Positions 138 through 28,508 of a stretch of 64,000 nucleotides of DNA are shown piece by piece (the first letter of the stretch is position 1; the number at the start of each line of letters is the position of its first letter). Made by a program: the position numbers and the translations under genes. The notes under the pieces were generated by a model that was not told where the DNA came from, did not search any database, and was given only the letters and a program-made list of their open reading frames with translations. Source of the DNA: a virus (lineage: Duplodnaviria; Caudoviricetes); the IMG/VR virus record IMGVR_UViG_3300012979_000031, positions 30,807 to 94,806 of that record; one strand, 5' to 3'.

Positions 138-365
138 ATGGCTAGATTTATTTTAAAACGTAAGATTTTCTTTGTTGGACTTGGAAACCTGGCCAACGCT
201 GCTACAGGTATGAAAGGTGCTCAACAATTAACTTCTGCTGGAAAAGCCTGGGAAGCAACTAAAGGAATAACTAAGTTAGGCATTGCTGGAACTGCTGTAG
301 CTGCTCCTATTATTGCTGCTAAAGGGGCGTATGATATTGCAACTGGAAAACCTTTAGAAAGTTAA
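138..365 (+). CDS. Small Gly/Ala-rich hydrophobic protein, KxF N-terminal motif family
   Basis: 75 aa, starts MARFILKRKIFF; hydrophobic GIAGTAVAAPIIAA segment. Confidence 0.75.
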   Translation: MARFILKRKIFFVGLGNLANAATGMKGAQQLTSAGKAWEATKGITKLGIAGTAVAAPIIAAKGAYDIATGKPLES

Positions 366-369
366 AAAG

Positions 370-948
370 ATGATTATAGTAAGACAAAAACAATTTGATG
401 AAGAAGAAAGTAGTACTGGTTCTAAAATTTTAAAAGGAACACTAGGAGTTGCTGGAACTGTTGGTGCTTTCTACGGTGCTCGAAAAGGTATGCTAGGTAA
501 TACTATTCAGATGGGAGCTAATAAACTCTACGGACAAGCTGGTGTTCAGTTGCAAAGACTAGGTAATACAGTTGCAGGTGGCTGGAAAGGAGGCGGTAAT
601 TTCCTTGCTAAACGTGGAAATAATATGGTAGAGTCTGCTTCTAAGGAATACGGAATCGCTAATGCACAGAAAAATTTAATCCAAGAGGGTATGAGCAAGG
701 ATCAAGTAGTCGGAGCAATTAATAAAGGTAAATCACAACTCAGAAATGATCTCTACAAAGATTATGGTGGTAGAAGTGGATTTAGAACACAACAGAATAA
801 TATAGACTATAAAAATATGTACGACTCCCAGAAAGCAATTAAGAAACCTGTAACCCCTACTCCTGTAACTAGTGGTGATTCTATAACTACAGCTAATAAC
901 CACGTACCTACAGTTGATCAATTAAAAGGTGGTTTAAGACTAGCATAA
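370..948 (+). CDS. Gly-rich protein, KxF N-terminal motif family
   Basis: 192 aa, starts MIIVRQKQF; GTLGVAGTVGAFYG segment. Confidence 0.8.
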   Translation: MIIVRQKQFDEEESSTGSKILKGTLGVAGTVGAFYGARKGMLGNTIQMGANKLYGQAGVQLQRLGNTVAGGWKGGGNFLAKRGNNMVESASKEYGIANAQKNLIQEGMSKDQVVGAINKGKSQLRNDLYKDYGGRSGFRTQQNNIDYKNMYDSQKAIKKPVTPTPVTSGDSITTANNHVPTVDQLKGGLRLA

Positions 949-959
949 AAATAATAATA

Positions 960-2033
960 ATGAAAGAGTTTATATATAGAGGTCTAGTATTAAGTACTAA
1001 CTGTAAATACTTTAATGTAGTGAAAGGCATTAGTGATTCAGTTGTTGAAGATAATACGACGTCTACATTAACTTTATCATTTACAGAAGGTAGTACAACA
1101 GACTCATTTTCGGAATTAACAGGTACACCTAAGATTGGAAAGTCACAGGAACTGGAACCTCTCGGAGTACCAATGAAACTTTCTGATCAAATATTAACAC
1201 TGAATGGCCTGAAGTTAAGAAAAAAGACTATAGATTCTCATGTGATTAATATAGTAATAGTTAGTGATTGTGAGTCTAGAGTAAGTCAAGATTACTGGCA
1301 TACAACTATAGTAGTTTCAAAGAATGATGCTAATAATCCAGAATTCGCCCAATACTTATTCTATTCTGGAAACTTAAAATTCTTACAACCAGTCGGACCT
1401 ATGCCAGATTGTTGGGAGATTAGAAACTTTCCAAAGATAATAATAGGAGATACTAGCTTAACATTAACATCAACCAGTACAGAGGTTTTTCAGCTTAGAA
1501 GGACTTATGATGATTATGTAATACGAGCCATAGACTATCAAGAACAAGCTATATCAGAGTTTAGAAGAATACTTGATGGATATGGATTAGAGCTAGTAAG
1601 ACAAAATAAAGAAACTACATTGAAAAAGACATCTTATGTAGTTTATCAGTTCTCTCAAACCCCAACTAAGATCAATCACCCATATTACGATGAAGTTGGT
1701 AGAAGAGTTATTTCACACAAGCTACCAGTCAACTTTTCATTACATACTACAGATATGGTTATGTTCTTTGATTTTAAAAATAAGTATACAAACCTAGATC
1801 TATTAACTAATTTCTGTGAGTATAAGACCTATGATAAGTATGGGAAAAGATGGACTGCTGCTATAAAATGGGGAGGAATCACAGAGGACTTTAATCATCA
1901 ATACCAATCAGATGATAATTCTAATTTTGCATTTCAGTGTCAGTTTATGTGTGAAATACATTTTTATGAAGTATTTGATGATAGATATGATGTGTTGAGA
2001 GAAATAGAACAATCGATTGAAGCAGAAGGATGA
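960..2033 (+). CDS. Hypothetical virion protein, possibly tail terminator/completion protein
   Basis: 357 aa ORF in the head-tail region; beta-rich C-terminal half; function inferred from position only. Confidence 0.45.
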   Translation: MKEFIYRGLVLSTNCKYFNVVKGISDSVVEDNTTSTLTLSFTEGSTTDSFSELTGTPKIGKSQELEPLGVPMKLSDQILTLNGLKLRKKTIDSHVINIVIVSDCESRVSQDYWHTTIVVSKNDANNPEFAQYLFYSGNLKFLQPVGPMPDCWEIRNFPKIIIGDTSLTLTSTSTEVFQLRRTYDDYVIRAIDYQEQAISEFRRILDGYGLELVRQNKETTLKKTSYVVYQFSQTPTKINHPYYDEVGRRVISHKLPVNFSLHTTDMVMFFDFKNKYTNLDLLTNFCEYKTYDKYGKRWTAAIKWGGITEDFNHQYQSDDNSNFAFQCQFMCEIHFYEVFDDRYDVLREIEQSIEAEG

Positions 2034-2401
2034 TTTCATTTAGACAGAAGAAAACTTTGATACAAAATATGATGCCAAAGGCGATGGAGTATCTAGAGGG
2101 AGAAAATATTCCATTTAACCGTATTAAGAAGGAGGATGCAGATAGAGTATCTTCTGTAAATAGTAAGGCAATGGTTCTTGTATCATTTATTAAGAACGAA
2201 CATGGAAATTATGAAATCCAAGTTCAAGATAAGAAGCTTTATAGTTACACAGTCAAGTTGCTCAAGGAAATCTTTAGAATGAATATTAAAGAAGTAGATG
2301 AGAAGAATAGAACTATAACTGCAGAATGTAACTATGAAGGAATTATACTAGATATTATAGATATACTAGGAAGAAAATATAATCTATCACTAGTTTGTTA
2401 A
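2030..2401 (+). CDS. Hypothetical protein, partial KxF motif
   Basis: 123 aa, starts MISFRQKK; ATGA overlap with the previous gene. Confidence 0.75.
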   Translation: MISFRQKKTLIQNMMPKAMEYLEGENIPFNRIKKEDADRVSSVNSKAMVLVSFIKNEHGNYEIQVQDKKLYSYTVKLLKEIFRMNIKEVDEKNRTITAECNYEGIILDIIDILGRKYNLSLVC

Positions 2402-2406
2402 ACCTT

Positions 2407-3084
2407 ATGATACAGTTTAGACAAAAAGAGTATACGGAACATGACGTTATGAGATTACTCTACGTCGAGCTTAAGAAAGATGGATTCTGGAGAGATCGAG
2501 TAAAGGTAATTAATAGAAGTTCAATAATTCCGGTACTCAGAGGAAATAATATTTTAATAGAGCGCTTTGTTATATCTACTAATTTATTTAGTAAAGATAA
2601 ATATAGATTATATATCAAGATTGGAGCACAAGCAAAATTACCTGATGAAGTTAGATTACCAGAGATTATACGACAAAGAAAAGTTCTAAATACAAAACTA
2701 AATTTTAGAGCTGCTGGTGGACCTTTCTTTCAGAATGAATTTAGCGAAACTGAAGAGGACATATTGTTACGTGAAAAGTTGTTTGGAAATAATAAGAAGA
2801 ATAAAGGCGGAAATAACAACAATAATAACAACGGTAACAATAATAATAATAGTCAGGCTGCATCTCCTTCTGTATATGCTGAGGTTTCAAATACTACACC
2901 TGGTGCTGATATTGAGTATGATATCAGATATCTCCTAGGTGAAGCCGTAAAGTATGATAAAAAAGACAGATCTTTGGTTCTTGAGTTTGACGGTCCTAAA
3001 GAGGATGCTATCAGAAGTATTAAAGAAGCTCTAAATATTCTCCCTTTCGGATTAGAATATAACATTTATTTACTAGATGTATGA
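2407..3084 (+). CDS. Hypothetical protein, KxF motif family, with Asn-rich linker
   Basis: ATG at 2407 gives MIQFRQKEY; internal REKLF followed by poly-Asn. Confidence 0.75.
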   Translation: MIQFRQKEYTEHDVMRLLYVELKKDGFWRDRVKVINRSSIIPVLRGNNILIERFVISTNLFSKDKYRLYIKIGAQAKLPDEVRLPEIIRQRKVLNTKLNFRAAGGPFFQNEFSETEEDILLREKLFGNNKKNKGGNNNNNNNGNNNNNSQAASPSVYAEVSNTTPGADIEYDIRYLLGEAVKYDKKDRSLVLEFDGPKEDAIRSIKEALNILPFGLEYNIYLLDV

Positions 3085-3320
3085 TGTTGACTTTAAAAAG
3101 AACTCTTCAAAATCCTATCAAGAAGAAACCGACTACTATGAATACTGGCGGAGGAATTGTTGGATTTAATAAAACTAGAAACTATGACCAGGATTTTAAT
3201 AGACTGGGGAAATTAGAGACTACACGCCAATTAAGTCAAGTAGGAGAGTTGCAGAAGGAAATGAAGAAGTTAAGTACGGAATTAAATGAGGGAAGAAGAG
3301 GAAAATGGCTAGATACATAA
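3081..3320 (+). CDS. Small basic hypothetical protein
   Basis: 79 aa, overlaps both neighbours; weak motif-like start MMLTLKR. Confidence 0.6.
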   Translation: MMLTLKRTLQNPIKKKPTTMNTGGGIVGFNKTRNYDQDFNRLGKLETTRQLSQVGELQKEMKKLSTELNEGRRGKWLDT

Positions 3321-3619
3321 TAAAAAGAAAATTAAAGCAGTTTGGTGTTATATCAGAAACTGGTGCGGGACTTGTTAATGGACTGGGAGCTGGTGTAGAG
3401 ACTGCGGGTGATGCTGTAAAAAGTAAAGCTGGACAAACTGCTGGTGGTATAGCTTCTGCAATGAATTTTGGAAGTGCTGTAGGTGGAATGTTAGGCGGAG
3501 GACCTTTAGGAATGTTAGCTGGTTATGCTGGTACTTATTTAGCAGGTAGAGCAGCAGCTAATGCAGTAGGAAGTGGTCTACAATCTATGGGTCAGAGCAT
3601 GCAAAATGTTCAGGGTTAA
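3305..3619 (+). CDS. Glycine-zipper protein, KxF motif family
   Basis: Starts MARYIIKRKLKQF; GSAVGGMLGGGPLGMLAG GxxxG repeats. Confidence 0.8.
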   Translation: MARYIIKRKLKQFGVISETGAGLVNGLGAGVETAGDAVKSKAGQTAGGIASAMNFGSAVGGMLGGGPLGMLAGYAGTYLAGRAAANAVGSGLQSMGQSMQNVQG

Positions 3620-3624
3620 AGGTT

Positions 3625-4707
3625 ATGATAAAATTTAGAGAAAAGATATTTTTTGTTCAAGGATTAATGGCAGTAGGCTCAATAGCATCTCTTCCTATGA
3701 TGGCAATGCAGATGTCTCAAGGTTCTGAACAAGCTGAAATGGCAGAAAAACAAAATGCCGAAAACATAAAAGCCATGAACTCTCAAACAGCAGCCATTAA
3801 CCGTCTTGCTAAAGCTAATCCAGGAATGGGAACTCAGGTAGGACAGATTAAGGCAGGTAGATTCAGTGATACTAAGGAGGTAGGTAGAAGAAAATTATTT
3901 GCTGCCGCTGGAGGAATGGGAGTATTATCTAAGTCATGGCAAACTGCTAAAAATCTATGGAAAGAGAACCCAAAGATAGCAGAACAGGTTAAGATGGGTG
4001 TTGGTATTGGTGCAACACTAGGAGCTGGAAAGTATATTGTCGGAAAGATGATCTCTAATGATGCTAAGAATAGTGGAATTGACTTGAACGCTGCTACACA
4101 AATGAATAAGGATATGCAACAAAAGGCTTATTCAGCAGAAGTAGTTAATCAAGTAGCACAACAGGGAGCCGAGAATACAACACAAAAGACCGCTGGTAAT
4201 TTTCTAGGTAAGGCTAAGAAATTTGCTGGAGGACAGTTACTTAATGTTGGTTTTGCCGGATTTGAAGGAGTTAGTAATTGGGGAACTTGGAAAGCTGAGA
4301 AAGAAGCATTACAAGGTATGACTAGACAGACTAATTCATTTCAGAGACAGAAGGCTTACTCTATACTACAGAAAGAGTTTGGCGTAGGAACATTCTTTGC
4401 CAGAGCTGCTAAAAAGACTACTAATGGACTTGGTAGTTTCTTAGGTGTAGGTAACTCAAAGACAATGGCAAATGTAGGTAAGAAGTTGAGTAAGACTGCT
4501 GGAGAAAATAATATTCAGAAAACTGTTGGAGATTTCATGACTAACCATAAGTATGCATCTACAGCCCTAGGTGTTGGAGCTGGTATTGGTGTTGCTTTTC
4601 CATTAGGTGAGAAGATTGGTAGTACGGCTGTTGAAGTTCCTACTAAAGCCATGGATAAGAGTGCATATGATTGGGAAAATTATCAAAATTCAAAAGTACA
4701 GTCGTAA
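3625..4707 (+). CDS. Gly/Ala-rich multi-segment protein with repeated KxF/Y motifs
   Basis: Starts MIKFREKIFF; internal RRKLF, QQKAYS, RQKAYS and LQKEF. Confidence 0.8.
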   Translation: MIKFREKIFFVQGLMAVGSIASLPMMAMQMSQGSEQAEMAEKQNAENIKAMNSQTAAINRLAKANPGMGTQVGQIKAGRFSDTKEVGRRKLFAAAGGMGVLSKSWQTAKNLWKENPKIAEQVKMGVGIGATLGAGKYIVGKMISNDAKNSGIDLNAATQMNKDMQQKAYSAEVVNQVAQQGAENTTQKTAGNFLGKAKKFAGGQLLNVGFAGFEGVSNWGTWKAEKEALQGMTRQTNSFQRQKAYSILQKEFGVGTFFARAAKKTTNGLGSFLGVGNSKTMANVGKKLSKTAGENNIQKTVGDFMTNHKYASTALGVGAGIGVAFPLGEKIGSTAVEVPTKAMDKSAYDWENYQNSKVQS

Positions 4708-5138
4708 TGGGAAGATTTATATTGAAGAGAAAACTTTATACTGTTTATGATGAGACTGATTCACTAAAGAGAATGAAGGACTCAGATATACTAGCACAAC
4801 AGAAAAAGGAAGCCCCCGGTCTAGGTAATGTAGCTCAATCGGCAATTACTGGAGCGGTAGCAGGTGCAGGAGCTCTGGGAGTAGCTGGAACTATCAAGAA
4901 TACAGTCAACGGTGGAGGTTTCAAAGGTGCATGGAAAGGATTTAAAGGTGGAGCTGGAACAGGTGCAATCTTAGGTGGACTAGGAGCTGGAGCTTACGCA
5001 ATGTACAAGAGAAGTAAACAGGTTGAGGATAATAGTTTCTACAATAAAAGACTTGATTATGCAAAGAAACAAGCTTTACGTAGAGAGAAGATTGATTGGA
5101 AAAATAATATGACCCAGCGTGATGGGTATTCTTATTAA
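4707..5138 (+). CDS. Glycine-zipper protein, KxF motif family
   Basis: ATG overlapping the upstream TAA (TAATG) gives MGRFILKRKLY; two GxxxG-rich hydrophobic segments. Confidence 0.8.
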   Translation: MGRFILKRKLYTVYDETDSLKRMKDSDILAQQKKEAPGLGNVAQSAITGAVAGAGALGVAGTIKNTVNGGGFKGAWKGFKGGAGTGAILGGLGAGAYAMYKRSKQVEDNSFYNKRLDYAKKQALRREKIDWKNNMTQRDGYSY

Positions 5139-5146
5139 TTTATAAA

Positions 5147-5878
5147 ATGGTTAAATTTAGATTAAAGAACTTTTCTATTCAGGATGGCGGATATAAAGGC
5201 GGAAAGTATCAACCAGTAAAAGCTAACTATGCTAAAGGTGCAGGTTTAGGAGCTAGTGTTGGTGCCATTGCAGGAGTTTTGAGTGGAATGAACAAAGGAA
5301 ATACAGTTGGAGGAGCAGCTCTTGGTTTAGCGGCTGGAGCAGGTATTGGAGCATTTATATCATGGATGAGAGAGAAGTGTGATCAGTCAATTTTTAATAG
5401 AGGAGAGGCTATTAGTGCTAACTCTTTCACCTTAATGCAGATACTTGAGGATAACTATACAAACTATGATCCAGATAATGAGGAGATTAATGTATCAAGA
5501 ACTCAGACAGATGATCAAGGAAATACTGTAACTGTAGCAAAGAAAACTACTAGATCAAATAAAACAGGTGTTGTAGCTAAAGGTAGTTTGTATACAGTAA
5601 ACCAAGATCCGAATAAATGTACAATATCTGCTTACTATAGTGCGGGAGTTCTAGTACTTTATGTTAATCGTCCGAAGAATCATGAGCTTAGTTTCTTGAA
5701 TAAAATATTAGATAAGTATTGCTATAGCTACAAGAATGCGGATTATACAGCAACACAAATTAGAAATAATGTATATGAAGTAGAGGTAGCTATTGTGGCT
5801 GGAACTGAAACTGATATTTGTGAACAGCTAGTTGATTCTGGTTTCTGTTTGAACATTATGACTACTAATAAATTCTAA
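5147..5878 (+). CDS. Glycine zipper plus alpha/beta domain protein, KxF motif family
   Basis: Starts MVKFRLKNFS; GAGLGASVGAIAG; resembles the N-terminal half of 11098..12369. Confidence 0.8.
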   Translation: MVKFRLKNFSIQDGGYKGGKYQPVKANYAKGAGLGASVGAIAGVLSGMNKGNTVGGAALGLAAGAGIGAFISWMREKCDQSIFNRGEAISANSFTLMQILEDNYTNYDPDNEEINVSRTQTDDQGNTVTVAKKTTRSNKTGVVAKGSLYTVNQDPNKCTISAYYSAGVLVLYVNRPKNHELSFLNKILDKYCYSYKNADYTATQIRNNVYEVEVAIVAGTETDICEQLVDSGFCLNIMTTNKF

Positions 5879-5881
5879 CTT

Positions 5882-6166
5882 ATGTTAATACTTAGACAAA
5901 GAAGTTTCGGAAGGAAAGAACAGATTGGAAAATTCTTGAAAGAGTCTCCAGTGATGCCAGCTACTGCATTAGGTCTAAGTGCTACTAGTGTTTATTTATC
6001 AGCTACTCGAAACAAACAGCTAAAAGAACAGAATCAGAAACAACTTGAAGCTTTGAAAGACTTGACTAGATCACTAAATAAAGTTGACAGAACAATATCT
6101 AGTGCTAGCAATGATAACCTAGAAGAAGCTGCTAAAAATAAGAAACGTAAATATTCTATATTTTAA
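5882..6166 (+). CDS. Small protein with hydrophobic segment and coiled coil, KxF-like motif
   Basis: Starts MLILRQRSFG. Confidence 0.75.
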   Translation: MLILRQRSFGRKEQIGKFLKESPVMPATALGLSATSVYLSATRNKQLKEQNQKQLEALKDLTRSLNKVDRTISSASNDNLEEAAKNKKRKYSIF

Positions 6167-6811
6167 ATGATAAAGTTTAGACAAAAAGATTTCGGATTTA
6201 CTGATTCTGCTATTAGTGGTAGTGTAGCAGGTTGGCACTTAGGAGGTGCTGTAGGTGGATTAACTAGACTAGATGCTCCTGCAAAGTTGTTAGGAATGTC
6301 TAAAGGCCTAGAAGGTTATGGACCCGGACAGAGGATGCTTGCGGGAGCTATTACTGGTGCTGTCATTGGTGCATCTCTTGGAATTCTTGCAGAGGGGATC
6401 AAGAAAATCTCTACTAATATAAACAGAAGAAATACAGTAGATAATAGACTGTTAAAAGTTGTTGTTGAAAATCTTCAGAAACAAGGATTCAAAGAAGGAG
6501 AAAAGTTCACAAGAGATCCAAAAACAGCTAGTGAGTTAAGAATAAAGATCTGTATTTCTGTAGCTAGAGTTAATGGTGATCTTAGGCTTCTTGTAAATAC
6601 TATTAAGGATCCTAAGTTGAAAGATTTATCTGAAACTATGATATCTCGTCTACCTAATTCTAGTGTAGTGAGACAGGACATGAAAGATAAGTTTAATGAG
6701 ATATCAATCACTTCTATTTCAGATTCTTCAGCGGATTCTGGATTAATTACTGGAATTGCTGAGTACTTTATAAGAAATGGTTATCCAGTATACTTAGTAG
6801 AAGTGGGTTAA
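6167..6811 (+). CDS. Glycine zipper plus alpha/beta domain protein, KxF motif family
   Basis: Starts MIKFRQKDFG; GAITGAVIGASLG; resembles the C-terminal half of 11098..12369. Confidence 0.8.
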   Translation: MIKFRQKDFGFTDSAISGSVAGWHLGGAVGGLTRLDAPAKLLGMSKGLEGYGPGQRMLAGAITGAVIGASLGILAEGIKKISTNINRRNTVDNRLLKVVVENLQKQGFKEGEKFTRDPKTASELRIKICISVARVNGDLRLLVNTIKDPKLKDLSETMISRLPNSSVVRQDMKDKFNEISITSISDSSADSGLITGIAEYFIRNGYPVYLVEVG

Positions 6812-6839
6812 AATAAACAAATAAATATTTTAAAATAAT

Positions 6840-9185
6840 ATGGCACAATGGAATGAAACTCTTGAGCCTTATATTAAAGTTCAGGAGGAAGTTAAAACCG
6901 CTACTCTAAATCCAACTACAGGTGAGGATTTAATTGTTGGATGTGTTATTTTCGCAGATGCAGGTCCTTCCGTTCCTACACTAATTAGAGGTCAGAAGGA
7001 GTTTAAGTCAGTTTTTGCATCACAAGAAATTACTGAAGATTATATAAACAGCCTGAATAAACTATATGATTGCGGTGAGAAGGGAGATAAAACACTTCCA
7101 AGTACACTCTGGACTAATGCTTACCGCCTGGCTGGATCTAATACATTACTAGTTGTTCGTGCTGGTAAAAGTAAAGGAGTTAATTTTGTAAAGTCGGTAG
7201 AGAAGAATGATTTTAGTACATATCTTCTTAAGGACGGTGCAGTATTGAAGAAAGTAGAACCATTTAAGATTGTTGTAGATTTCGATGGAGACTCAGCTGC
7301 TCATTCTACAGATGGTTGGTCAGTTAATATTGAAGGTGTAGGTATCATTGGTAATAGAGTAACAGATAATGGTTCTCAATATGATATTCCTGCTAATAAC
7401 CTTCCAGAACTAGTAAAGATTCTTAATGAAACTTCTGTATTCTTCTCTCCATCATACAAGTTCTATTCAGATGTTGAAGCTACAGATGCTAATGAGGTTC
7501 CAGCAAGTTCTAGTGAGATTCGTTCTGTAAAATTTGATGAAGTATATCTTGCTAATACTATTCTAGATACAACAGATGAAAGATGCCCTAACGGAACTTG
7601 TTATCTTGTATTCTGTGAGCCTGATTTCAATGAGCCAGATCAGCAAGTTATTAATGAGTTCTTACAAAATAAATCAGGTTTACTAGATGCGAATACAATA
7701 GCTAATTTCGATGCCCCAGAGTTTTATGCAATCAATAATTATAATACTGCTTCAGAACTTAGAGTTAGAATTCGTAGATTTAATCATGATGCAGTAAATA
7801 CTAATAACATTGGTACATTAACTCAGCTTACTTCTACAGGTCCTTCAGCAGTTGTTCCAGTGAAGGAGGTTCTAGATACATTTACTAAGGGAGGTACATC
7901 AGAGGTTAGTGATTCAGTTAAGAAAAGAGATTTCTTCGAAGTAGCTATCTATGACCCTTCTATATCTAGTGAGGTATTATTCTTCAACATTGGTAACATT
8001 AGCGGTCGTGGAGATGTAACAGTTGATGAGTTTAATAGCCAGATGAGCATGATTGGATTCAACTTACCTAAGGATCTTCATGACTTGGATCTAAACTACT
8101 CTGGATATGATGCGGATGAGGCTACTTGGGAACTTCTTGTTGATGGACTACCTGCAGGAAAACAAGCTAGTTTCGTTAAGTCAAGCTTTGAGGAACTAAA
8201 TAAGGTAGATAAGACTACTTGGATTGTTGGCGAGACTATTGCTTACGTTGATGGAAATTACTACCTATACGTAACTAATGGTGAGGATCAGATTTACTGT
8301 GACCTTAAGATTGATCCAACAGTTTATAAGATTCTAATGGCTAATGATACTGATCTATTGAATGCTGTTGATCTACTAGAGGAGGATGAGGTTTATGTTA
8401 CAGAAGGTTTGTCAGATCTTGGAAATACTAACGCTTCATTCCAATCTTATGCAGCAAACTTAGCAATCAATGGAAACTACTTCTACCCTATTAGTACTGT
8501 AAACTCTACTAACTACATGACTATTGGCAACTCTATTTCTAAGATTAGCCAGAACTCTTACAAACTATATGCATCTTCTCCTTGGGATCTTGACACTAGT
8601 ACTCTTGGATGGCCTTGTTACATTTCTCCTAGTGTTCTTTATTGGGAGGCTGTATCAAGAAATCGTAGAAATAATGAAGAGTTCCGTGGAGTTCTTGGTC
8701 AGCAGGGTGGTTTAGTTCAGTATCAGTCTCCTGTAGTTGAGTTTAATAAGAAGACTAGACAGCTACTATTAACAAAGAAAGTAAATACAGCTACATGGGA
8801 TATTCAGACAAGCAGCTGGATAATGAATGATAACTATACTAAGCAGTCTGAAAATACAATTCTTAGTGATGATGGAAATTCAAGACTACATCTAAGAATC
8901 TCAAAATCTATTCCAGTAATTCTAAAGCAGTTTATTGGAAGAAAGATTACAGATAAGTTGTGTGATGATATTGAGTATACTATCAAATACTTCTTCCAGA
9001 CTACAATTCAAAGTTACTCATATACTGTAGATGATTATCAAGTATTCTGTGACTATGATGAAGCTTTGGCACGTCAGAATAAAGTAAAGGTAGTTATTAA
9101 TGTAAGATATCATAGAACAGCTAAGTATATCAATGTAATTAACAGAGCATTCGATGTTGGTATGAGTATCGATTCTGCAGAGTAA
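6840..9185 (+). CDS. Contractile tail sheath protein
   Basis: 781 aa; sheath-like N-terminus (EPYIKVQE...GPSVPTLIRGQKEFKSVF...LLVVRA) and C-terminus (RLHLRISKSI...FIG...NKVKVVINVRYHRTAKYINV). Confidence 0.85.
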   Translation: MAQWNETLEPYIKVQEEVKTATLNPTTGEDLIVGCVIFADAGPSVPTLIRGQKEFKSVFASQEITEDYINSLNKLYDCGEKGDKTLPSTLWTNAYRLAGSNTLLVVRAGKSKGVNFVKSVEKNDFSTYLLKDGAVLKKVEPFKIVVDFDGDSAAHSTDGWSVNIEGVGIIGNRVTDNGSQYDIPANNLPELVKILNETSVFFSPSYKFYSDVEATDANEVPASSSEIRSVKFDEVYLANTILDTTDERCPNGTCYLVFCEPDFNEPDQQVINEFLQNKSGLLDANTIANFDAPEFYAINNYNTASELRVRIRRFNHDAVNTNNIGTLTQLTSTGPSAVVPVKEVLDTFTKGGTSEVSDSVKKRDFFEVAIYDPSISSEVLFFNIGNISGRGDVTVDEFNSQMSMIGFNLPKDLHDLDLNYSGYDADEATWELLVDGLPAGKQASFVKSSFEELNKVDKTTWIVGETIAYVDGNYYLYVTNGEDQIYCDLKIDPTVYKILMANDTDLLNAVDLLEEDEVYVTEGLSDLGNTNASFQSYAANLAINGNYFYPISTVNSTNYMTIGNSISKISQNSYKLYASSPWDLDTSTLGWPCYISPSVLYWEAVSRNRRNNEEFRGVLGQQGGLVQYQSPVVEFNKKTRQLLLTKKVNTATWDIQTSSWIMNDNYTKQSENTILSDDGNSRLHLRISKSIPVILKQFIGRKITDKLCDDIEYTIKYFFQTTIQSYSYTVDDYQVFCDYDEALARQNKVKVVINVRYHRTAKYINVINRAFDVGMSIDSAE

Positions 9186-9193
9186 TAAAAGAT

Positions 9194-9228
9194 AAGAGAG
9201 GGACGTAAAAATCCTTCTCTTCTTTATT
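9194..9228 (+). terminator. Terminator after sheath gene
   Basis: AAGAGAGGGA-N8-TCCTTCTCTT hairpin plus T-rich tail. Confidence 0.7.
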
Positions 9229-9243
9229 AAACTTTTAGAAATT

Positions 9244-9975
9244 ATGGAGAAAACATTATTAACTGACCTTAAGAAAAAAATATTTATAAGATCTGCCTTA
9301 ATAGCTGTAGGTTCGCTAGATGAGATACTAGGGATGAATGATTACTTGTCGGCTGATGAAATCTTACTAGAAATTATAAAAGAAGCTTTAAGAGAATTTG
9401 AAGAGACTAATCCACTAATTCTTGAGATGAAACTAAACAAGGAACAGATGTCAACTTGTTATGGTATGGAAGGATTCTATGAGATTAAGTCAAACTTCAC
9501 TTTATTCCTAGACTGTATGATTTCAGAGGATCAGATAGTACTTGTCCCTAATAGTATGCCAATGTGGAGAAACCTAGGCTCTTATCCAGTAGCAGGTGGT
9601 TATAGTTATTTCTCAGAGTATAGAAGACCTTACATATTCTTAGGTGATCTACCCTCGAATGATCAATTTTATCTGAGAGGAATATGTAGTAGACCTATTA
9701 TTCCAGATTTTTTACCGGACAAAACTTTCAACCCAGAGAGCAATAAAGCAGCAATATACTGGATGAATATTGAAGAAGGTGCTAGAGCTAATTATTTCCT
9801 AGATCTATGTTTATGCCACTTACTTGATTATATTCGCCAGCTTAAATCTAGTGTACAATTACCAGGAATGTCTATAGATGTTTTTGGTAACGTAGATTCT
9901 GCTTATCAAGAACTTAGAGCTAGAGCTGATCAGGAAAGATTACAATCGGGTTGGTATGGAGATTTATTAATATGA
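9244..9975 (+). CDS. Putative neck / head-tail adaptor protein
   Basis: 243 aa; helical N- and C-termini around a beta core, with C-terminal QLPGMSIDV...ELRARA like myovirus neck proteins; position supports. Confidence 0.5.
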   Translation: MEKTLLTDLKKKIFIRSALIAVGSLDEILGMNDYLSADEILLEIIKEALREFEETNPLILEMKLNKEQMSTCYGMEGFYEIKSNFTLFLDCMISEDQIVLVPNSMPMWRNLGSYPVAGGYSYFSEYRRPYIFLGDLPSNDQFYLRGICSRPIIPDFLPDKTFNPESNKAAIYWMNIEEGARANYFLDLCLCHLLDYIRQLKSSVQLPGMSIDVFGNVDSAYQELRARADQERLQSGWYGDLLI

Positions 9976-10390
9976 TAATACAATACTGAGGCAAAAACAA
10001 TATATATCTCTCCCCTCTTTTTCTTTCCCTAAGCCAAATTTAGTAAGTAATATAGGAGAGTCTGTATCAAGTAACATTTACGCTATGAGACAGAATGTAG
10101 CAGATGCGGCACTTGGAAGAACAGGCTTAAGACTTAAATTAAAACCGACTCAAGTTCAAGCAGCAGAAAGTATGTTAGTTAATAATACAGGACAAGCAGC
10201 GTTAAATGCAGGTGAAAAATTTGCTTATAAACTTGGAGGAGATTCTTTACAAAATACCTATAATAATACAATTAAACCTATGGCTAATAGTACTGGGTTG
10301 AATAATGTTAGTATAAGAGGTGTAGGAAACTCTATGATTGGTATTGGAGGTTCGAGTGGAGATGAAATGATAGGAAACTTTTTAATGTAG
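9972..10390 (+). pseudogene. KxF-motif family gene disrupted near its start by an apparent 5-bp duplication (AATAC x2)
   Basis: ATGATAATACAATACTGAGGCAAAAACAATAT; removing one AATAC gives MIILRQKQY in frame with ORF 10085..10390. Confidence 0.6.
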
Positions 10391-10397
10391 TATATAG

Positions 10398-10434
10398 AAA
10401 GAGAGGGATTTTATAACCTTCTCTTTTTATTTTT
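10398..10434 (+). terminator. Rho-independent terminator
   Basis: AAAGAGAGGG...CCTTCTCTTT hairpin plus T run. Confidence 0.7.
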
Positions 10435-10467
10435 CTCTTACCCCGATTGATTTAGGAAAAATAATAG

Positions 10468-10484
10468 CTTGAACCTTATTTATG
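10468..10484 (+). promoter_or_regulatory. Putative promoter box CTTATnnnTG
   Basis: CTTGAACCTTATTTATG between a terminator and the ATG at 10506. Confidence 0.5.
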
Positions 10485-10505
10485 ATATAATATTAATGAA
10501 ACTCT

Positions 10506-11090
10506 ATGATTATATTAAGAAATAAGATGTTTGTCAGCCTAGATAATATATGGAATGATAAAAAAGCACCAAAAAGGACTTTTATCAATAAACTAAAGCT
10601 GACTGCAAAGAATGGACTGAATAACTTAGGGGTAGCGAAAAAGAAAATTTTTAATCCGACCAAGCCCCTAACCCTAGAAGATAAAAGAGGAATTATAAAG
10701 GAAACTAATTCAAGTCTAGACTATATAAAGAATCTTGGAACTAAACCTACAGAAACTCTTGCAAAATCTGGAGCTAGTATTGTAAAAGAAACTTTAGAGT
10801 CTCCTATTCAAAATTCTATAACAAAAGGAGTAGGATCCATTGGCGTTATAACTACTGGAAATCCTTTAGCTTATAGTCCAGGAGCAGAAACTGTAGTAAA
10901 AGAGACAATAAACGGAGTTCCAGTACTAAAGAAAACAATAGGAGCTGTAGATAATGTGGTAGGTTCTAAGAAATTGGCTAGTAAGATAAATCCAGAGGCA
11001 ATAGGTAAAGCTGCTTCTGTTGTTGATAATACTGCTAAAACTGGAATAAAAGGTGGACTTAATTTAGTAAAGAGAATTTTTAAACGATAA
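10506..11090 (+). CDS. Basic amphipathic protein, KxF motif family
   Basis: 194 aa, starts MIILRNKMF; Lys-rich. Confidence 0.75.
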   Translation: MIILRNKMFVSLDNIWNDKKAPKRTFINKLKLTAKNGLNNLGVAKKKIFNPTKPLTLEDKRGIIKETNSSLDYIKNLGTKPTETLAKSGASIVKETLESPIQNSITKGVGSIGVITTGNPLAYSPGAETVVKETINGVPVLKKTIGAVDNVVGSKKLASKINPEAIGKAASVVDNTAKTGIKGGLNLVKRIFKR

Positions 11091-11097
11091 GAAGTAC

Positions 11098-12369
11098 ATG
11101 GGAAAGAGTTATAGAATAAAAAGAAAAAATTTTACAATACCTGAAGGACATTTTACAGGACAGAAAGATATGGAAGAAATACCTAGTCTGTTAAGTAATG
11201 TAGGAAAAGGAGTTATGTATGGATCAGGTATTGGTGCAGGTGTTGGAGCTATAGTCGGACACTTTAATAATGATTCTACTACACTAGGCGGAGCTATAGA
11301 TGGCAGTATACAGGGAGCTAAAGTTGGTCTTGCCTCCGGTGTTATGTTAAAGTTCTTCCAAAATTATATGCACAAGCCAATGAAATCTATAAAGTTCCAA
11401 GAAGTAGATCGAGGAATTCGTAGACAGTTTGGTATGTATAGAGTTTCTGGATTATCGGTAGGAGATTCTATTGATAACCGAATGACTATGGATGAAAAAT
11501 TTAGCTTCAATGATAGAAATGTAGCTGACTATAAGATTAATATTGCTATTCAAAATGACAGTGTTACTATGTATACTTTCGGAATGGATAATAAAGAGCT
11601 TGACTTGTGTTCTAGTATTCTTGATTTCTATGCACAAAAGTATTTCGGAGTTAACTATAGTTCTAAGCTAATAAATAAAACAGTTAATTCTTACAGTATA
11701 GATATTACTTTTACAAACTATAATGTAATTACTAACTTTATCATGGAACTTTCTCAGAGATTGCAGACTAAGATTAACTTGATGAATGAGAAAGCTATTA
11801 TTCCAGGGAGACTTAGTGATGCAGCGTCTAGTATAGGAGGAGACCAGAAAAATTTTAGTATACCCGAGCTATCAAAAAGTGATGTAGCCAAGATACTCGG
11901 GAAAACAGGACAACATATAATAAGTGAGTCTAAGGGTGGCTGCGGATGGAGAAAACTAGGAACTGCTGCATTTATAGGTCTGATTTCTAATACACTAGAG
12001 AAGATAACTAGCATAGAATCAGCGAAGTACGGATTAAAAAAGCCTAGAAGTGAATATGGTAACTCATTCCTTGGAAAAGAGCTAAAGAAACTACATTACG
12101 TCGAGAATACATCATATACAGTTGGAGATGTTGAGGCTTCTGATAATATTGCACTAGTTAATGGAAGATTTATAGTTACTACATACACTGGAAGCGAGAA
12201 TCAGAAGAAAATAGATGAATGTTTCTATAATCCATATCAAATGAAAATTAATAAGAGTAACACAGGAGGAGCTACAGTCTATTCTTATGTTATAGATTCT
12301 ATTAGCGAATTCGAACTCTTGATTAATAAGCTATTCTCAACTAAAATAAAATTTAACGTATTTATATGA
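11098..12369 (+). CDS. Two-unit glycine-zipper protein, KxF motif family
   Basis: Starts MGKSYRIKRKNFT; internal QKNFS at the junction of two paralogous halves. Confidence 0.8.
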   Translation: MGKSYRIKRKNFTIPEGHFTGQKDMEEIPSLLSNVGKGVMYGSGIGAGVGAIVGHFNNDSTTLGGAIDGSIQGAKVGLASGVMLKFFQNYMHKPMKSIKFQEVDRGIRRQFGMYRVSGLSVGDSIDNRMTMDEKFSFNDRNVADYKINIAIQNDSVTMYTFGMDNKELDLCSSILDFYAQKYFGVNYSSKLINKTVNSYSIDITFTNYNVITNFIMELSQRLQTKINLMNEKAIIPGRLSDAASSIGGDQKNFSIPELSKSDVAKILGKTGQHIISESKGGCGWRKLGTAAFIGLISNTLEKITSIESAKYGLKKPRSEYGNSFLGKELKKLHYVENTSYTVGDVEASDNIALVNGRFIVTTYTGSENQKKIDECFYNPYQMKINKSNTGGATVYSYVIDSISEFELLINKLFSTKIKFNVFI

Positions 12370-12707
12370 TTATTCTTAGAAATAATAAAAATAATAGTCC
12401 ATTTGAGAAGAAACTTGAAGGACAGAAAATTCTAGATTATGAAATATCTGAAGAAATTCCAAAAAATAATATAAGTGTAACCAAAGACTTAGGGAATTTC
12501 AAAGTATTTTTTCCAATCGATTATGAATTTGACCAATATGAAATTTCAGATACTATCAGATTGTCTCAGCCTGATGTAAGGACGAATGCAGAGCAAGAGT
12601 ATGATATTATTACTCTATCTACTAATAAGCCAATCAAAGAGACTACATTCTTTAAAGTTCTGAAAAAGATTATTGAAATTGAAGGATTTGTTACAATAAT
12701 TGAATAA
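12366..12707 (+). CDS. Hypothetical protein, partial motif
   Basis: 113 aa, starts MIILRNNK. Confidence 0.7.
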   Translation: MIILRNNKNNSPFEKKLEGQKILDYEISEEIPKNNISVTKDLGNFKVFFPIDYEFDQYEISDTIRLSQPDVRTNAEQEYDIITLSTNKPIKETTFFKVLKKIIEIEGFVTIIE

Positions 12708-25610: not shown

Positions 25611-25615
25611 TAATT

Positions 25616-27109: not shown

Positions 27110-27114
27110 TTACT

Positions 27115-27417
27115 ATGTTTAAACAAAATAAACTAATAAACACTAATAAAACAGAATTGGCTAACTTTATAGAAGGTCAAGATATATTCAATTCATTACT
27201 AATATCTGAAATGAATAGACCTGGAATTATGAAGACTATCTATACGGTCACTACTGATTATAGACCTGACTTGGTAGCTCTTGAATTCTATGGCTCTGAA
27301 AATTATCTAGGAATTCTTCTATTACAAACTAGCCCTTCTCTTAGTGTTTTCAAAAAAGGTACTCAACTGAAATTACTACCTAAAGAAACAATTGATGAAA
27401 TAATAACTAGACTATGA
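27115..27417 (+). CDS. LysM / tail-X-like baseplate protein
   Basis: YRPDLVALEFYGSENYLGILL...GTQLKL motif. Confidence 0.7.
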   Translation: MFKQNKLINTNKTELANFIEGQDIFNSLLISEMNRPGIMKTIYTVTTDYRPDLVALEFYGSENYLGILLLQTSPSLSVFKKGTQLKLLPKETIDEIITRL

Positions 27418-28508
27418 GTAACAATATTAGTGGTGATGTAAACGGAATTTCTGTATATTTTAAACCTTGGACTACAGAACATTATTTTAGTATATCCGTT
27501 CTTAAAATTCATGAAGAGCTTGGAGGTGAAATAGCAGGAGGTTATATGAAATTAATTCTACATGATGTTTCTGATGTAGAGTCTGTAAAATTAGTAACCG
27601 AACTAGATACAGGCACTATTGAGATATCTTATAACTACAATAATACTCCTGTCCTGAGAATTCCTGTATATATCACTACTAAAAGTTACTTCAAAAATTT
27701 CCTAGAGATTAAATTCCTTTGTACTTCTAGGGGTAATGATGACTTCCTTGTAAAACTAACTTCTCAAACCTATACCGGAATTGAAGAAGCTATTAGTACA
27801 TATTTTCCAGAACCAGATACAGACATAGATCCTATTACAGACTTAGAGAAAATCAGAATTCAACAAATAAATGAAACTGGTATAGACTTCTGTAATAGAC
27901 TGGCCACCGGTTGGAATTCATCTACTGTCTTTGGTTATAATGCTGAAGGTAATATAATCATTAGAGATGTATCCGATCCAGGGAAAACTAAAGCAAAAGT
28001 AATCCTGGGAAAAACTAGAAGATTTAAAGAGGCACCTATTCTATCTAGGACTCCTCTACTTGATACTGAACCTATTAATCCTTGGGAAAAAGAAAGTAAA
28101 GATATTGATTATAACCTCACCAGAAAAGACTACTCTGATGTAATACCTGTAAACCTAGAGTCTAATGTGTATAGAGAGTCTTATAACATTTTCTCTAAAC
28201 AATACTCCCCCTTGATGGCTGCTTATTCTACTAATCTCAGACTACTTAAATCTAAATTCTATTCTGAAGGTGAATTAGTGGCTCTAAGTTATCCTCAATA
28301 TAGACTAGGGGATATCGTAGAACTAACTTATGAGGGTGGTGATGTAAAGAAATCTGATAAAGAAAATGAACCTATACTCTATACTAAGAATTACTTGGTA
28401 GCTAGCTGGAACTTTTTCTGGGTAGGAGCAGGAGCAGAGGGTGAAACTGATAAAAATGGTGCTCCCTTCTCTGTGATCTCAGACTTATATGGACTAGATA
28501 AATATTAA
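27414..28508 (+). CDS. Baseplate hub protein (gp27/gpD-like)
   Basis: 364 aa between LysM-like and spike genes; QINETGIDFCNRLA and YRLGDIVEL motifs. Confidence 0.6.
   Translation: MSNNISGDVNGISVYFKPWTTEHYFSISVLKIHEELGGEIAGGYMKLILHDVSDVESVKLVTELDTGTIEISYNYNNTPVLRIPVYITTKSYFKNFLEIKFLCTSRGNDDFLVKLTSQTYTGIEEAISTYFPEPDTDIDPITDLEKIRIQQINETGIDFCNRLATGWNSSTVFGYNAEGNIIIRDVSDPGKTKAKVILGKTRRFKEAPILSRTPLLDTEPINPWEKESKDIDYNLTRKDYSDVIPVNLESNVYRESYNIFSKQYSPLMAAYSTNLRLLKSKFYSEGELVALSYPQYRLGDIVELTYEGGDVKKSDKENEPILYTKNYLVASWNFFWVGAGAEGETDKNGAPFSVISDLYGLDKY

What the first reader, a model, noticed from the sequence alone, without database searches (positions are those of the whole stretch)
138..12707. Family of ~14 virion-region proteins sharing an N-terminal R/K-x-K-x-F/Y tag: candidate packaging or processing signal system
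Seen: the N-termini are MARFILKRKIF (138), MIIVRQKQF (370), MIQFRQKEY (2407), MARYIIKRKLKQF (3305), MIKFREKIF (3625), MGRFILKRKLY (4707), MVKFRLKNF (5147), MLILRQRSF (5882), MIKFRQKDF (6167), MIILRNKMF (10506) and MGKSYRIKRKNF (11098). Partial copies occur at 2030 (MISFRQKK) and 12366 (MIILRNNK), and a broken copy at 9972. The bodies after the tag are diverse and its codons vary, so conservation is at protein level. The interleaved sheath and neck genes and the later tail genes lack it. Established: T4 internal proteins use a ~10-aa N-terminal capsid-targeting sequence removed by the prohead protease, and PVC injection-system cargo use N-terminal loading signals. Inference: this is a shared address or cleavage tag for a large set of cargo proteins packaged into the virion and ejected into the host. 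I do not recognise it as a described motif.
Basis: partly seen in the sequence, partly recalled or inferred. Interest (0 to 1): 0.9.

Follow-up and report, generated by a model that had tools for sequence, protein, structure and literature searches.

The report
Shared head-protease leader on phage proteins
In an uncultured giant phage of cattle and sheep guts, about a quarter of the genes in this fragment start with the same 9-13-residue tag. The tag ends in the motif that most likely marks where the phage's own T4-like head protease cuts, so it is probably a removable capsid-loading leader like the one on T4's internal proteins, but with a new cutting rule.

Summary
In the 94.8-kb phage record, 22 genes start with M-h-x-[FLVY]-[RK]-x-[KR]-x-[FY]; 13 are in the window, plus a 14th broken by a 5-bp duplication. 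A strict pattern hits 17 of 80 genes, against 4 of 168 off-frame ORFs.

The tag's last residues equal a four-residue motif, [KR]-x-[FY]-S. This motif is massively over-represented only in the head-assembly genes just upstream of the window: 27 observed against 1.5 expected. It sits at conserved positions in a T4 gp21-fold prohead protease (VIA-align Z 13.2), an acidic scaffold-like protein (13 sites) and the gp23-like capsid protein's propeptide.

The arrangement holds in all seven diverse loci examined, out of 42 related loci found on contigs up to 401 kb.

Best reading: a T4-CTS-like leader cut by the phage's own protease after Phe/Tyr. Characterised relatives (T4, SPN3US) cut after Glu. Neither cleavage nor packaging has been measured.

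This is a new variant of a known kind. The scan has noted analogous leader systems with other motifs in other uncultured phage lineages (e.g. e1-3862018, e1-5751506, e1-5824991).

The parts
138..365 (+). Tagged gene, 75 aa. Tag MARFILKRKIF at 138-170 (class B), followed by a Gly/Ala-rich body.
370..948 (+). Tagged gene, 192 aa. Tag MIIVRQKQF at 370-396. Three internal K-x-Y|G sites.
2030..2401 (+). Partial tag MISFRQKK with no F/Y at P1. The orthologues are partial in the same way (MISFRQKQ, MITFRQKK).
2407..3084 (+). Tagged gene, 225 aa. Tag MIQFRQKEY at 2407-2433. The tag is conserved in every relative examined (MI[KE]F[RK][QE]K.F|[ST]EYDA).
3081..3320 (+). It starts MMLTLKRTL, with Leu at P1. 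Orthologues start MIIVLKLKRF|S, MMKIKRF|S and MILKRF|S.
3305..3619 (+). Tagged gene, 104 aa. Tag MARYIIKRKLKQF at 3305-3343 (class B). Glycine-zipper-like body.
3625..4707 (+). Tagged gene, 360 aa. Tag MIKFREKIF at 3625-3651. Five internal [KR]x[FY][SGA] sites against 1.1 expected, which looks like a polyprotein.
4707..5138 (+). Tagged gene, 143 aa. Tag MGRFILKRKLY at 4707-4739 (class B). Glycine-zipper-like body.
5147..5878 (+). Tagged gene, 243 aa. Tag MVKFRLKNF at 5147-5173. Homologues down to 49% identity keep MI[KQ]FRQK.F|SIQEGGY.
5882..6166 (+). Tagged gene, 94 aa. Tag MLILRQRSF at 5882-5908. It is the first unit of the three-gene fusion seen in relative G002.
6167..6811 (+). Tagged gene, 214 aa. 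Tag MIKFRQKDF at 6167-6193. It is the third unit of the G002 fusion.
9972..10390 (+). Broken tagged gene. A 5-bp AATAC duplication after ATGAT shifts the frame. Without it the gene would read MIILRQKQY|IS. Sister strains in two other studies lack the 5 bp.
10506..11090 (+). Tagged gene, 194 aa. Tag MIILRNKMF at 10506-10532.
11098..12369 (+). Tagged gene, 423 aa. Tag MGKSYRIKRKNF at 11098-11133. Five internal sites, including QKNF|S at residue 251.
12366..12707 (+). Partial tag MIILRNNK. The G002 orthologue has the full tag (MVILRQKIY|S).
6840..9185 (+). Untagged 781-aa gene, a weak tail-sheath match. Together with untagged genes 960-2033, 9244-9975 and everything after 12707, it shows the tag is not a general N-terminal bias.

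Best explanation
The tag is a short, removable N-terminal propeptide with two parts.

Its last residues, [KR](P3)-x-[FY](P1), usually followed by Ser, Gly, Thr or Ala, are a cutting site for the phage's own prohead maturation protease. That protease has the T4 gp21 fold and is encoded 4.6-5.8 kb upstream of the window (record positions 25008-26240).

The preceding residues, M-[I/V/A]-x-[F/L/Y]-[R/K]-x, are absent from internal sites. They most likely act as the address that brings the protein into the assembling prohead core, as residues 4 and 7 of the 10-residue T4 capsid targeting sequence do.

After the shell closes, the protease would do four things: chop the acidic scaffold-like proteins at their many [KR]-x-[FY]|S sites, trim about 73 residues from the gp23-like capsid protein, cut itself free in its linker, and clip the tags. 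That would leave about 22 or more unrelated proteins inside the head. Most are basic and several are Gly/Ala-rich and hydrophobic. They are presumably released with the DNA.

Shown here: the tag, the motif and its distribution, the protease fold, and conservation across the family.
Inferred: the cutting itself, the address role, packaging and ejection.
For: 1. The tag is real and selected at protein level. Orthologues at 75%, 49% and 40% identity keep it.

2. [KR]x[FY]S occurs 27 times in the six head-module proteins, against 1.5 expected (z 19.5). In the 32 genes downstream of the tagged block it occurs 16 times against 14.1 expected.

3. The positions of the motif are coupled in head-module proteins of three genomes:
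- after [KR]x[FY], Ser follows in 57% of cases (background 7.6%)
- P3 is K/R in 68%
- P1 is F/Y in 66%

4. The acidic 722-aa protein has 13 sites against 0.6 expected. The 278-aa protein has 7 against 0.8.

5. P0007 residues 1-182 match T4 gp21 (5jbl). Foldseek gives E 4.8e-5, probability 1.0. VIA-align gives Z 13.2, rmsd 2.6 A over 129 residues. Herpesvirus proteases come next at Z about 9. Across 38 homologues, H50, H88 and S136 are invariant. The disordered linker carries invariant K210-x-F212-S213 and K238-x-F240-S241.

6. The capsid protein candidate resembles Gp23-family clusters by language-model features. It has conserved AKMF|S and QKTF|SGY sites. The sequence between them is variable and gapped, and strong conservation begins right after the second site.

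7. All seven diverse loci examined, out of 42 related loci, show the same order: protease, a protein with 5-6 sites, an acidic protein with 11-14 sites, the capsid protein with 2 sites, then tagged small genes.

8. In a 183-kb relative, the roughly 28-30 sequences that look like the tag all lie between 5 and 57 kb around the head genes.

9. In relative G002, three tagged genes of this window form one 540-aa protein. The first junction keeps MMKKFRLF|SIQDGGY.

10. The T4 precedent: the first 10 residues of IPIII suffice for head incorporation. Residues 4 and 7 serve targeting and residues 8 and 10 serve processing. The T4 internal proteins are basic (PMC9026906). Here 16 of the 22 mature parts have more K+R than D+E.
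Against: - There is no proteomic or biochemical evidence. The phage is uncultured and no cut has been seen.
- The residue after the tag is less strict in this genome (S, G, T, F, D, V, A) than at internal sites (77% Ser), so some tags may not be cut.
- Two in-window copies (2030, 12366) lack the aromatic P1, and so do the orthologues of 2030.
- The second junction of the G002 fusion reads KFRQKNN|S, with the aromatic lost.
- Seven tagged genes lie among genes that do not look structural, including some on the minus strand, and none has a recognisable domain. Their presence in the virion is therefore assumed.
- The catalytic residues were not mapped in three dimensions.
- The Pfam scan of the protease (E<=0.1) listed only one weak, unrelated family and no protease family. 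Its assignment rests on a predicted fold.
Confidence: 0.68

Rival explanations
1. The tag is a cutting site only. It is clipped by the head protease but carries no address. Incorporation into the prohead depends on the mature parts of each protein, and the conserved M-I-x-F-R part merely makes a good substrate at an N-terminus that lacks upstream residues.
For: The P3 and P1 residues are what the tag shares with internal sites. SPN3US and phiKZ-type phages remove N-terminal propeptides from many head proteins, and no universal short address is described for them (PMC10052503).
Against: P9-P4 of the tags are strongly conserved: Met, Ile, Ile/Lys, Leu/Phe, Arg/Lys, Gln/Arg. Internal sites have acidic P9-P4 (Glu at P4 in 35 of 86) and are presumably cut anyway. 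The bodies are unrelated, so a common body-borne address is unlikely.
Confidence: 0.2
2. The tag is a membrane-targeting or signal-anchor N-terminus, a positively charged n-region ahead of hydrophobic Gly/Ala-rich segments. It would mark phage membrane proteins that act in the infected cell (lysis, exclusion, transport) rather than in the capsid.
For: Eight of 22 tagged proteins have a Gly/Ala-rich hydrophobic 20-mer, against 6 of 58 untagged ones. There are weak glycine-zipper Pfam hits below the curated cut-off.
Against: Fourteen of 22 tagged proteins have no such segment. Several tags are followed directly by acidic or polar sequence (MIIVRQKQF|DEEESS, MIQFRQKEY|TEHD). The tag has no hydrophobic core of its own. 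The same motif recurs in soluble acidic scaffold-like proteins, the protease linker and the capsid protein propeptide.
Confidence: 0.05
3. The tag is a leader cut by a host or phage Prp-type cysteine protease. Prp is the enzyme that removes the 9-residue MLxxNLQFF leader of ribosomal protein L27 and the leaders of the capsid and scaffold proteins of staphylococcal phage 80alpha.
For: The length (9 residues), the position (extreme N-terminus) and the aromatic P1 are the same. MIKF/MIIL resembles MLKL at positions 1-4 (PMC9405229).
Against: - No Peptidase_Prp (PF04327) match was found in this record or in two relatives of 183 and 207 kb, though all may be incomplete.
- The (D/N)-L-Q core of the L27 motif is absent (PMC9405229).
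- Shine-Dalgarno-like motifs upstream of the genes are at or below the random rate. This suggests, but does not prove, a host that does not use them. Such a host would be outside the phyla reported to have long L27 (Firmicutes, Fusobacteria, Synergistetes, some Thermotogae and Tenericutes; PMC9405229).
- The phage's own gp21-fold protease carries the motif in its linker.
Confidence: 0.03
4. The tag is a by-product of A/T-rich 5' codon choice, or a translation-initiation enhancer, in a phage whose genes lack Shine-Dalgarno sites. On this reading it has no role as a peptide.
For: The tag codons are very A/T-rich (ATG ATW AAA TTT AGA CAA AAA), and Shine-Dalgarno-like motifs are not used.
Against: - Off-frame ORFs (4 of 168) and shuffled N-termini (mean 3.2) do not produce the tag.
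- The presumably most highly expressed genes (capsid, sheath, tube) lack it.
- Tags stop abruptly after the head-proximal block, although base composition stays the same.
- The motif also occurs internally, far from any start codon.
Confidence: 0.03

Closest known systems
[quoted passage not shown]
   Same: A leader of about 10 residues at the extreme N-terminus of otherwise unrelated, mostly basic proteins. It ends in the cutting motif of a gp21-fold protease, and the same motif also chops the scaffold and trims the capsid protein. It is bipartite: the early residues serve targeting and the last residues serve processing (PMC9026906).
   Different: - The sequence is unrelated (MKTYQEFIAE in T4, from my own knowledge).
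- The T4 motif is (L/I)-x-E with Glu at P1. Here it is (K/R)-x-(F/Y), usually followed by Ser.
- T4 has a handful of such proteins. This 94.8-kb fragment, estimated at about a quarter of the genome, has at least 22.
- About a third of the cargo here has Gly/Ala-rich hydrophobic segments.
- Nothing has been tested experimentally here.
Prohead proteases of T4 (gp21, MEROPS S77), phiKZ (gp175) and SPN3US (gp245), with their many cleaved head and ejection proteins
   Same: The fold, autoprocessing sites, cleavage of scaffold, capsid and many internal proteins, and a P3-x-P1 style of recognition. SPN3US cuts after A-x-E and removes N-terminal propeptides (PMC10052503).
   Different: There is no sequence-level match: the Pfam scan listed no protease family and the PDB sequence search gave nothing relevant. 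The predicted P1 is aromatic, not Glu. [LI]xE and [SAG]xE are not enriched in the head proteins here (z 1.0 and 0.4). The protease carries a C-terminal four-helix domain of about 150 residues behind a cleavable linker.
Herpesvirus assemblin maturation and release sites, (V/L/I)-x-A|S (my own knowledge)
   Same: The protease fold is related (Z about 9). The site has the same shape: P3, any residue, P1, then Ser at P1'.
   Different: P3 is basic rather than aliphatic. P1 is aromatic rather than Ala. [VLI]xAS is not enriched here.
L27 N-terminal leader and the phage 80alpha capsid and scaffold leaders, cut by the host cysteine protease Prp
   Same: A 9-residue N-terminal leader ending in Phe that is removed before assembly (PMC9405229).
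   Different: The motif core is different, and no Prp gene was found. The motif is tied to a serine-protease-fold enzyme of the phage. In 80alpha only two phage proteins carry such a leader.
N-terminal cargo-loading signals of PVC and other extracellular contractile injection systems
   Same: An N-terminal signal shared by diverse payload proteins.
   Different: Those signals are longer, disordered regions that load cargo into a tail tube. They are not tied to a capsid maturation protease. Here the motif is shared with the scaffold, the capsid protein and the head protease.

Membership tests
T4-type capsid targeting / prohead-protease propeptide system | A short leader at the extreme N-terminus, shared by proteins with unrelated bodies | tested here: met
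   22 tagged genes were found. Their bodies share no BLASTP hit at E<=1e-3.
T4-type capsid targeting / prohead-protease propeptide system | The leader ends in the motif that also marks processing sites in the scaffold, capsid protein and protease | tested here: met
   [KR]x[FY]S occurs 27 times against 1.5 expected in the head module. It is invariant in the protease linker and conserved at the end of the capsid protein propeptide. The motif is inferred from sequence, not measured.
T4-type capsid targeting / prohead-protease propeptide system | The phage encodes a gp21/assemblin-fold prohead protease next to the scaffold and capsid genes | tested here: met
   P0007 residues 1-182 against 5jbl: Z 13.2, Foldseek probability 1.0. 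The gene order is conserved in 7 loci.
T4-type capsid targeting / prohead-protease propeptide system | The leader is necessary and sufficient for incorporation into the prohead | not testable with these tools
   This needs reporter fusions in an assembly system. The phage is uncultured.
T4-type capsid targeting / prohead-protease propeptide system | The leader is absent from the mature virion protein | not testable with these tools
   This needs virion or metaproteome N-terminomics.
T4 gp21 prohead protease family (MEROPS S77 / Pfam Peptidase_S77) | Sequence match to the family model | tested here: not met
   The Pfam scan of P0007 at E<=0.1 listed only one weak, unrelated family. PHROGs gave 0 families. 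The PDB profile search found nothing relevant.
T4 gp21 prohead protease family (MEROPS S77 / Pfam Peptidase_S77) | gp21/assemblin fold with a conserved His and Ser | tested here: inconclusive
   The fold criterion is met. H50, H88 and S136 are invariant in 38 sequences, but they were not placed in three dimensions because no model coordinates were available.
T4 gp21 prohead protease family (MEROPS S77 / Pfam Peptidase_S77) | Cleavage after Glu in (L/I)-x-E or (S/A/G)-x-E | tested here: not met
   These motifs are not enriched in the head proteins (z 1.0 and 0.4), while [KR]x[FY]S has z 19.5.
Prp / long-L27 leader system (MEROPS C108) | A Prp protease gene in the phage or host, and a leader with the (D/N)LQ(F/L)F'A core | tested here: not met
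   No PF04327 match was found in G000, G003 or G004, which may all be fragments. The tag has R/K-x-K at the corresponding positions. The host genome is unknown.
Sec-type or lipoprotein signal peptide | A basic n-region, a hydrophobic core of 7-15 residues, then a small-x-small or lipobox site | tested here: not met
   The tag is 9-13 residues long with no hydrophobic core. Many tags are followed by acidic or polar sequence.

The most novel reading that the evidence does not exclude
A widespread family of giant gut phages of ruminants and other hosts uses a two-part N-terminal code: an address (M-I-x-F/L-R-x) plus a new basic-x-aromatic|Ser cutting rule for a gp21-fold protease. With it the phages load two dozen or more unrelated proteins into the capsid and inject them with the DNA. 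Many of these proteins are basic or have membrane-active glycine-zipper segments. Genes are freely split, fused and exchanged behind the tag. The tag would then be a portable handle for loading cargo into such phages, and its presence would read out the injected arsenal directly from sequence.
Probability: 0.45. Interest if true: 0.7.

Novelty: new variant of a known kind. Interest (0 to 1): 0.6.

Why it matters
If correct, the tag gives a sequence-only way to list the proteins that an uncultured giant gut phage carries in its head. There would be at least 22 in a quarter of this genome, all of unknown function.

It would also show that gp21-fold head proteases are not limited to cutting after glutamate. 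That matters for predicting maturation sites in metagenomic phages.

It would extend T4's capsid-targeting principle, which is already used to package foreign proteins in T4, to a phage family that is common in cattle and sheep guts. Relatives lie on contigs of up to 401 kb.

The split and fused gene forms with the tag kept at a junction suggest how such cargo sets evolve.

Tried and rejected
- Host Prp hypothesis. This was my first idea, because of the 9-residue leader ending in Phe. I dropped it after finding no Prp gene, a different motif core (PMC9405229), and the motif in the phage's own protease.
- Complex prediction of the protease domain (A2 residues 1-182) with the first 45 residues of the 5147 family. 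The verdict was 'no answer' (score 0.02). It is not evidence either way.
- Megablast of the region and tblastn of the protease against 50,697 GenBank phage records. No match, so no cultured relative with proteomics could be used.
- Pfam and PHROG scans of 20 tagged proteins. Only sub-threshold hits came up: glycine zipper, T7_gp14 at E 0.021, tape measure at E 0.003. No function could be assigned.
- PDB sequence search with the protease profile. Nothing relevant.
Three of the largest relatives (contigs of 365, 375-383 and 401 kb) are not held for whole-record search, so no census of a complete genome of about 350-400 kb was possible.
- A check of the 183-kb relative for exact terminal identity failed, although IMG/VR classes it as having direct terminal repeats. 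I therefore do not claim it is complete.
- Paralogy among the tagged bodies, as suggested by earlier notes for 11098 against 5147 and 6167, was not detected by BLASTP at E<=1e-3 with low-complexity filtering.
- Literature searches found no paper reporting a phage head protease that cuts after Phe or Tyr, and none describing this tag. One query was rejected for a too-short term.

Full report
**What the window is.** The window is bases 30807-94806 of a 94,806-bp IMG/VR virus record that CheckV rates about 25% complete. Proteins 99% identical to its protease lie on contigs of 338-351 kb, so this is a fragment of a giant phage. Near-identical DNA occurs in contigs of bovine, sheep and rumen metagenomes from about 15 studies. 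G+C is 31-40% in 2-kb windows, mostly about 33%. No GenBank phage matches at the DNA or protease level. PHROG hits are few and weak: sheath E 1.4e-4, tube E 3.2e-7. Shine-Dalgarno-like motifs upstream of the genes are at or below the random rate in this record and two relatives. The host therefore probably does not use them.

**The observation.** There are two sub-forms:
- Class A: M-[IVL]-x-[FLV]-R-x-[KR]-x-[FY], 9 residues.
- Class B: M-[AGT]-x-[FY]-I-[LI]-K-R-K-x-[FY], 11-13 residues.

A strict pattern finds 17 of 80 genes. Controls gave 4 of 168 off-frame ORFs, 4 of 412 internal Met positions, and a mean of 3.2 (maximum 10) for shuffled N-termini. Counting near-misses by eye, 22 genes of the record carry the tag. 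Nine of them lie upstream of the window, and three of those nine are on the minus strand. The bodies are unrelated by BLASTP and the codons vary.

The 'broken copy' at 9972 is a 5-bp AATAC duplication. Contigs from two other studies lack those 5 letters, which restores MIILRQKQY. A third strain keeps the tag but lacks 354 nt of the body. Gene 3081-3320 is a further degenerate copy, because its orthologues are tagged.

**The key lead lies just outside the window.** The genes immediately upstream are full of internal [KR]-x-[FY]-S:

| Gene (record positions) | Size | Sites observed | Expected |
|---|---|---|---|
| 27109-29277 (acidic) | 722 aa | 13 | 0.6 |
| 26240-27076 | 278 aa | 7 | 0.8 |
| 24039-24866 | 275 aa | 6 | 1.4 |
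| 25008-26240 (P0007) | 410 aa | 4 | 0.8 |

Over the six head-module proteins the four-residue motif occurs 27 times against 1.5 expected (z 19.5). In the 32 genes downstream of the tagged block it occurs 16 times against 14.1 expected. The canonical T4 and phiKZ motifs and the herpesvirus motif are not enriched.

The positions of the motif are coupled. Ser follows [KR]x[FY] in 57% of cases (background 7.6%). P3 is K/R in 68% of x[FY]S. P1 is F/Y in 66% of [KR]x?S.

**The protease.** P0007 has 315 homologues on contigs up to 408 kb. Its alignment shows a conserved N-terminal domain with invariant H50, H88 and S136. After it comes a variable linker with invariant K210-x-F212-S213 and K238-x-F240-S241, plus near-invariant F189-S190 and K260, and then a helical C-terminal domain.

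The AlphaFold model is confident for residues 1-180 and 264-396, and disordered exactly over the linker. Residues 1-182 match T4 gp21 best. Foldseek gives E 4.8e-5 and probability 1.0. VIA-align gives Z 13.2 and rmsd 2.6 A over 129 residues. Herpesvirus proteases follow at Z about 9. There is no sequence-level match to any family.

**Capsid protein and other head proteins.** The 500-aa protein that ends at the window's first bases resembles Gp23-family clusters by language-model features. This is a lead, not a test. In three genomes it has conserved AKMF|S (cut after residue 42) and QKTF|SGY (cut after residue 73). The sequence between them is gapped and variable, and near-identity begins right after the second site. 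This is the pattern expected of a removed propeptide; T4 gp23 loses 65 residues (my own knowledge). A 582-aa conserved head-module protein, a portal candidate that I did not verify, has a conserved EK[ML]F|GSFA near its N-terminus.

**Conservation across the family.** The pattern-based scan found 42 loci. All seven diverse loci I examined, with protease identity down to 37%, show the same order: protease, a protein with 5-6 sites, an acidic protein with 11-14 sites, the capsid protein with 2 sites, then small genes starting MATY.LKRK.[FY], MI[KE]F[RK].K.F, MYIRRKVF|S or MIILR.K.[FY]|S. Two relatives of about 90-106 kb have 20 and 26 pattern hits.

In a 183-kb relative, all sequences that look like the tag (about 28-30) lie between 5 and 57 kb, on both strands around the head genes. 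The 11 pattern hits beyond 100 kb do not resemble the tag. The same holds here: tags span record positions 1.4-43.5 kb and then stop.

**The tag has two parts.** When 64 tags from three genomes are aligned on P1, they show this pattern:

| Position | Residues (count of 64) |
|---|---|
| P9 | Met (34) |
| P8 | Ile (25) |
| P7 | Ile / Lys (21 / 12) |
| P6 | Leu / Phe (21 / 16) |
| P5 | Arg / Lys (34 / 17) |
| P4 | Gln / Arg (17 / 14) |
| P3 | Lys / Arg (56 / 8; required by the search pattern) |
| P1 | Phe / Tyr (46 / 18; required by the search pattern) |
| P1' | Ser (24), then Thr, Gly, Phe, Ala, Ile |

The 86 internal sites share only P3, P1 and P1'. Their P9-P4 residues are acidic, with Glu at P4 in 35 of 86. 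So the upstream half of the tag is a separate conserved element. In T4, targeting maps to residues 4 and 7 of the 10-residue leader and processing to residues 8 and 10 (PMC9026906). The same division of labour is the simplest reading here.

**Split and fused forms.** One 540-aa protein of relative G002 corresponds to three consecutive tagged genes of this window (5882, 5147, 6167). The first junction keeps MMKKFRLF|SIQDGGY. The second reads KFRQKNN|S, with the aromatic lost. Within this window, genes 3625-4707 and 11098-12369 carry five internal sites each. This fits polyproteins that are cut into units, although the second G002 junction shows that not every junction keeps a site.

**What the cargo is.** No tagged protein has a recognisable domain. 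Sixteen of the 22 mature parts are net basic. Eight of 22 have a Gly/Ala-rich hydrophobic 20-mer, against 6 of 58 untagged proteins. T4's internal proteins are likewise small and basic (PMC9026906). Whether the hydrophobic ones act on the host envelope is open.

**Rivals.**
- A host Prp/L27-type leader shares the length and the aromatic P1 (PMC9405229). But no Prp gene was found, the motif core differs, and the motif is tied to the phage's own protease.
- A codon-bias or translation artefact is excluded by the controls, by untagged capsid, sheath and tube genes, and by the internal sites.
- A membrane signal does not fit the 14 tagged proteins that have no hydrophobic segment.
- The live alternative is that the tag is only a cutting site with no address role.

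**Comparison with what is known.** The characterised gp21-fold proteases I could check cut after Glu: T4 at (L/I)-x-E, and SPN3US at A-x-E (PMC9026906, PMC10052503). That phiKZ cuts at (S/A/G)-x-E is from my own knowledge. My literature searches found no report of one that cuts after an aromatic residue, and no description of this tag.

The system is therefore a new variant of a known kind. It uses the T4 capsid-targeting principle with a different predicted specificity, on a much larger set of genes, in an uncultured phage family.

Earlier notes of this scan describe analogous leader-plus-motif systems with other motifs in other uncultured lineages. I did not test those.

**Limits.** Cleavage, packaging and ejection are all inferred. 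The largest relatives could not be read whole.

Noticed in passing
L024:10446-10600 and L024:11208-11420 (the same in L037 and L053): In the relatives on 255-401-kb contigs, the prohead protease gene is interrupted twice by stop-rich inserts of about 155-200 nt. The first falls directly after the PGVSAVI motif that holds the invariant Ser. The second matches Rfam group I intron RF00028 at 28 bits (E 8.5e-5), which is below the gathering score. The two inserts share a conserved ACGACTA...ATATAGTCTA core. They are probably two small ORF-less group I introns inside an essential head gene.
   Followed up: partly
window 9977-9981: The 5-bp AATAC duplication that breaks the tagged gene at 9972 is absent from contigs of two other studies (X1, X4). 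A third strain (X3) keeps the tag but lacks 354 nt of the body (9981-10336). This gene is variable in the population.
   Followed up: yes
G001 (IMGVR_UViG_3300021256_000072) positions 1-24000 = L007, L008: About 14 paralogous genes in a row start with the same, different N-terminus (MTEKEAEDLCKMVRIG...). Their lengths range from 132 to 370 aa. This is a second, unrelated shared-N-terminus family in a sister phage.
   Followed up: no
whole record; for example upstream of window 138 and 10506, and record positions 10780(-) and 18046(-): Shine-Dalgarno-like motifs occur at or below the random rate. Several starts sit a few bases behind TATAAT-like boxes. This suggests a host that does not use Shine-Dalgarno sites, and possibly very short or absent mRNA leaders.
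   Followed up: partly
L001:6928-10090 (record positions upstream of the window, minus strand): A MoxR-like AAA ATPase (phrog_249, E 3e-30) and a CobT/vWA-like protein (phrog_1576, E 6.5e-14) are adjacent. A tagged gene (10235-10780) lies next to them.
   Followed up: no
L002:11240-12076 (278-aa protein between the protease and the acidic protein): It begins with two tandem RRKLF|S sites and then a CxxC...CxxC zinc-ribbon-like segment (weak Pfam zinc-ribbon hits, E about 1e-3 to 1e-2). The segment is conserved in three genomes. A zinc ribbon in a scaffold-position protein is unusual.
   Followed up: no
L002:5585-6391: An N-acetylmuramidase (PF11860, E 6e-63) with a peptidoglycan-binding domain lies upstream of the head module. 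It is the likely endolysin.
   Followed up: no
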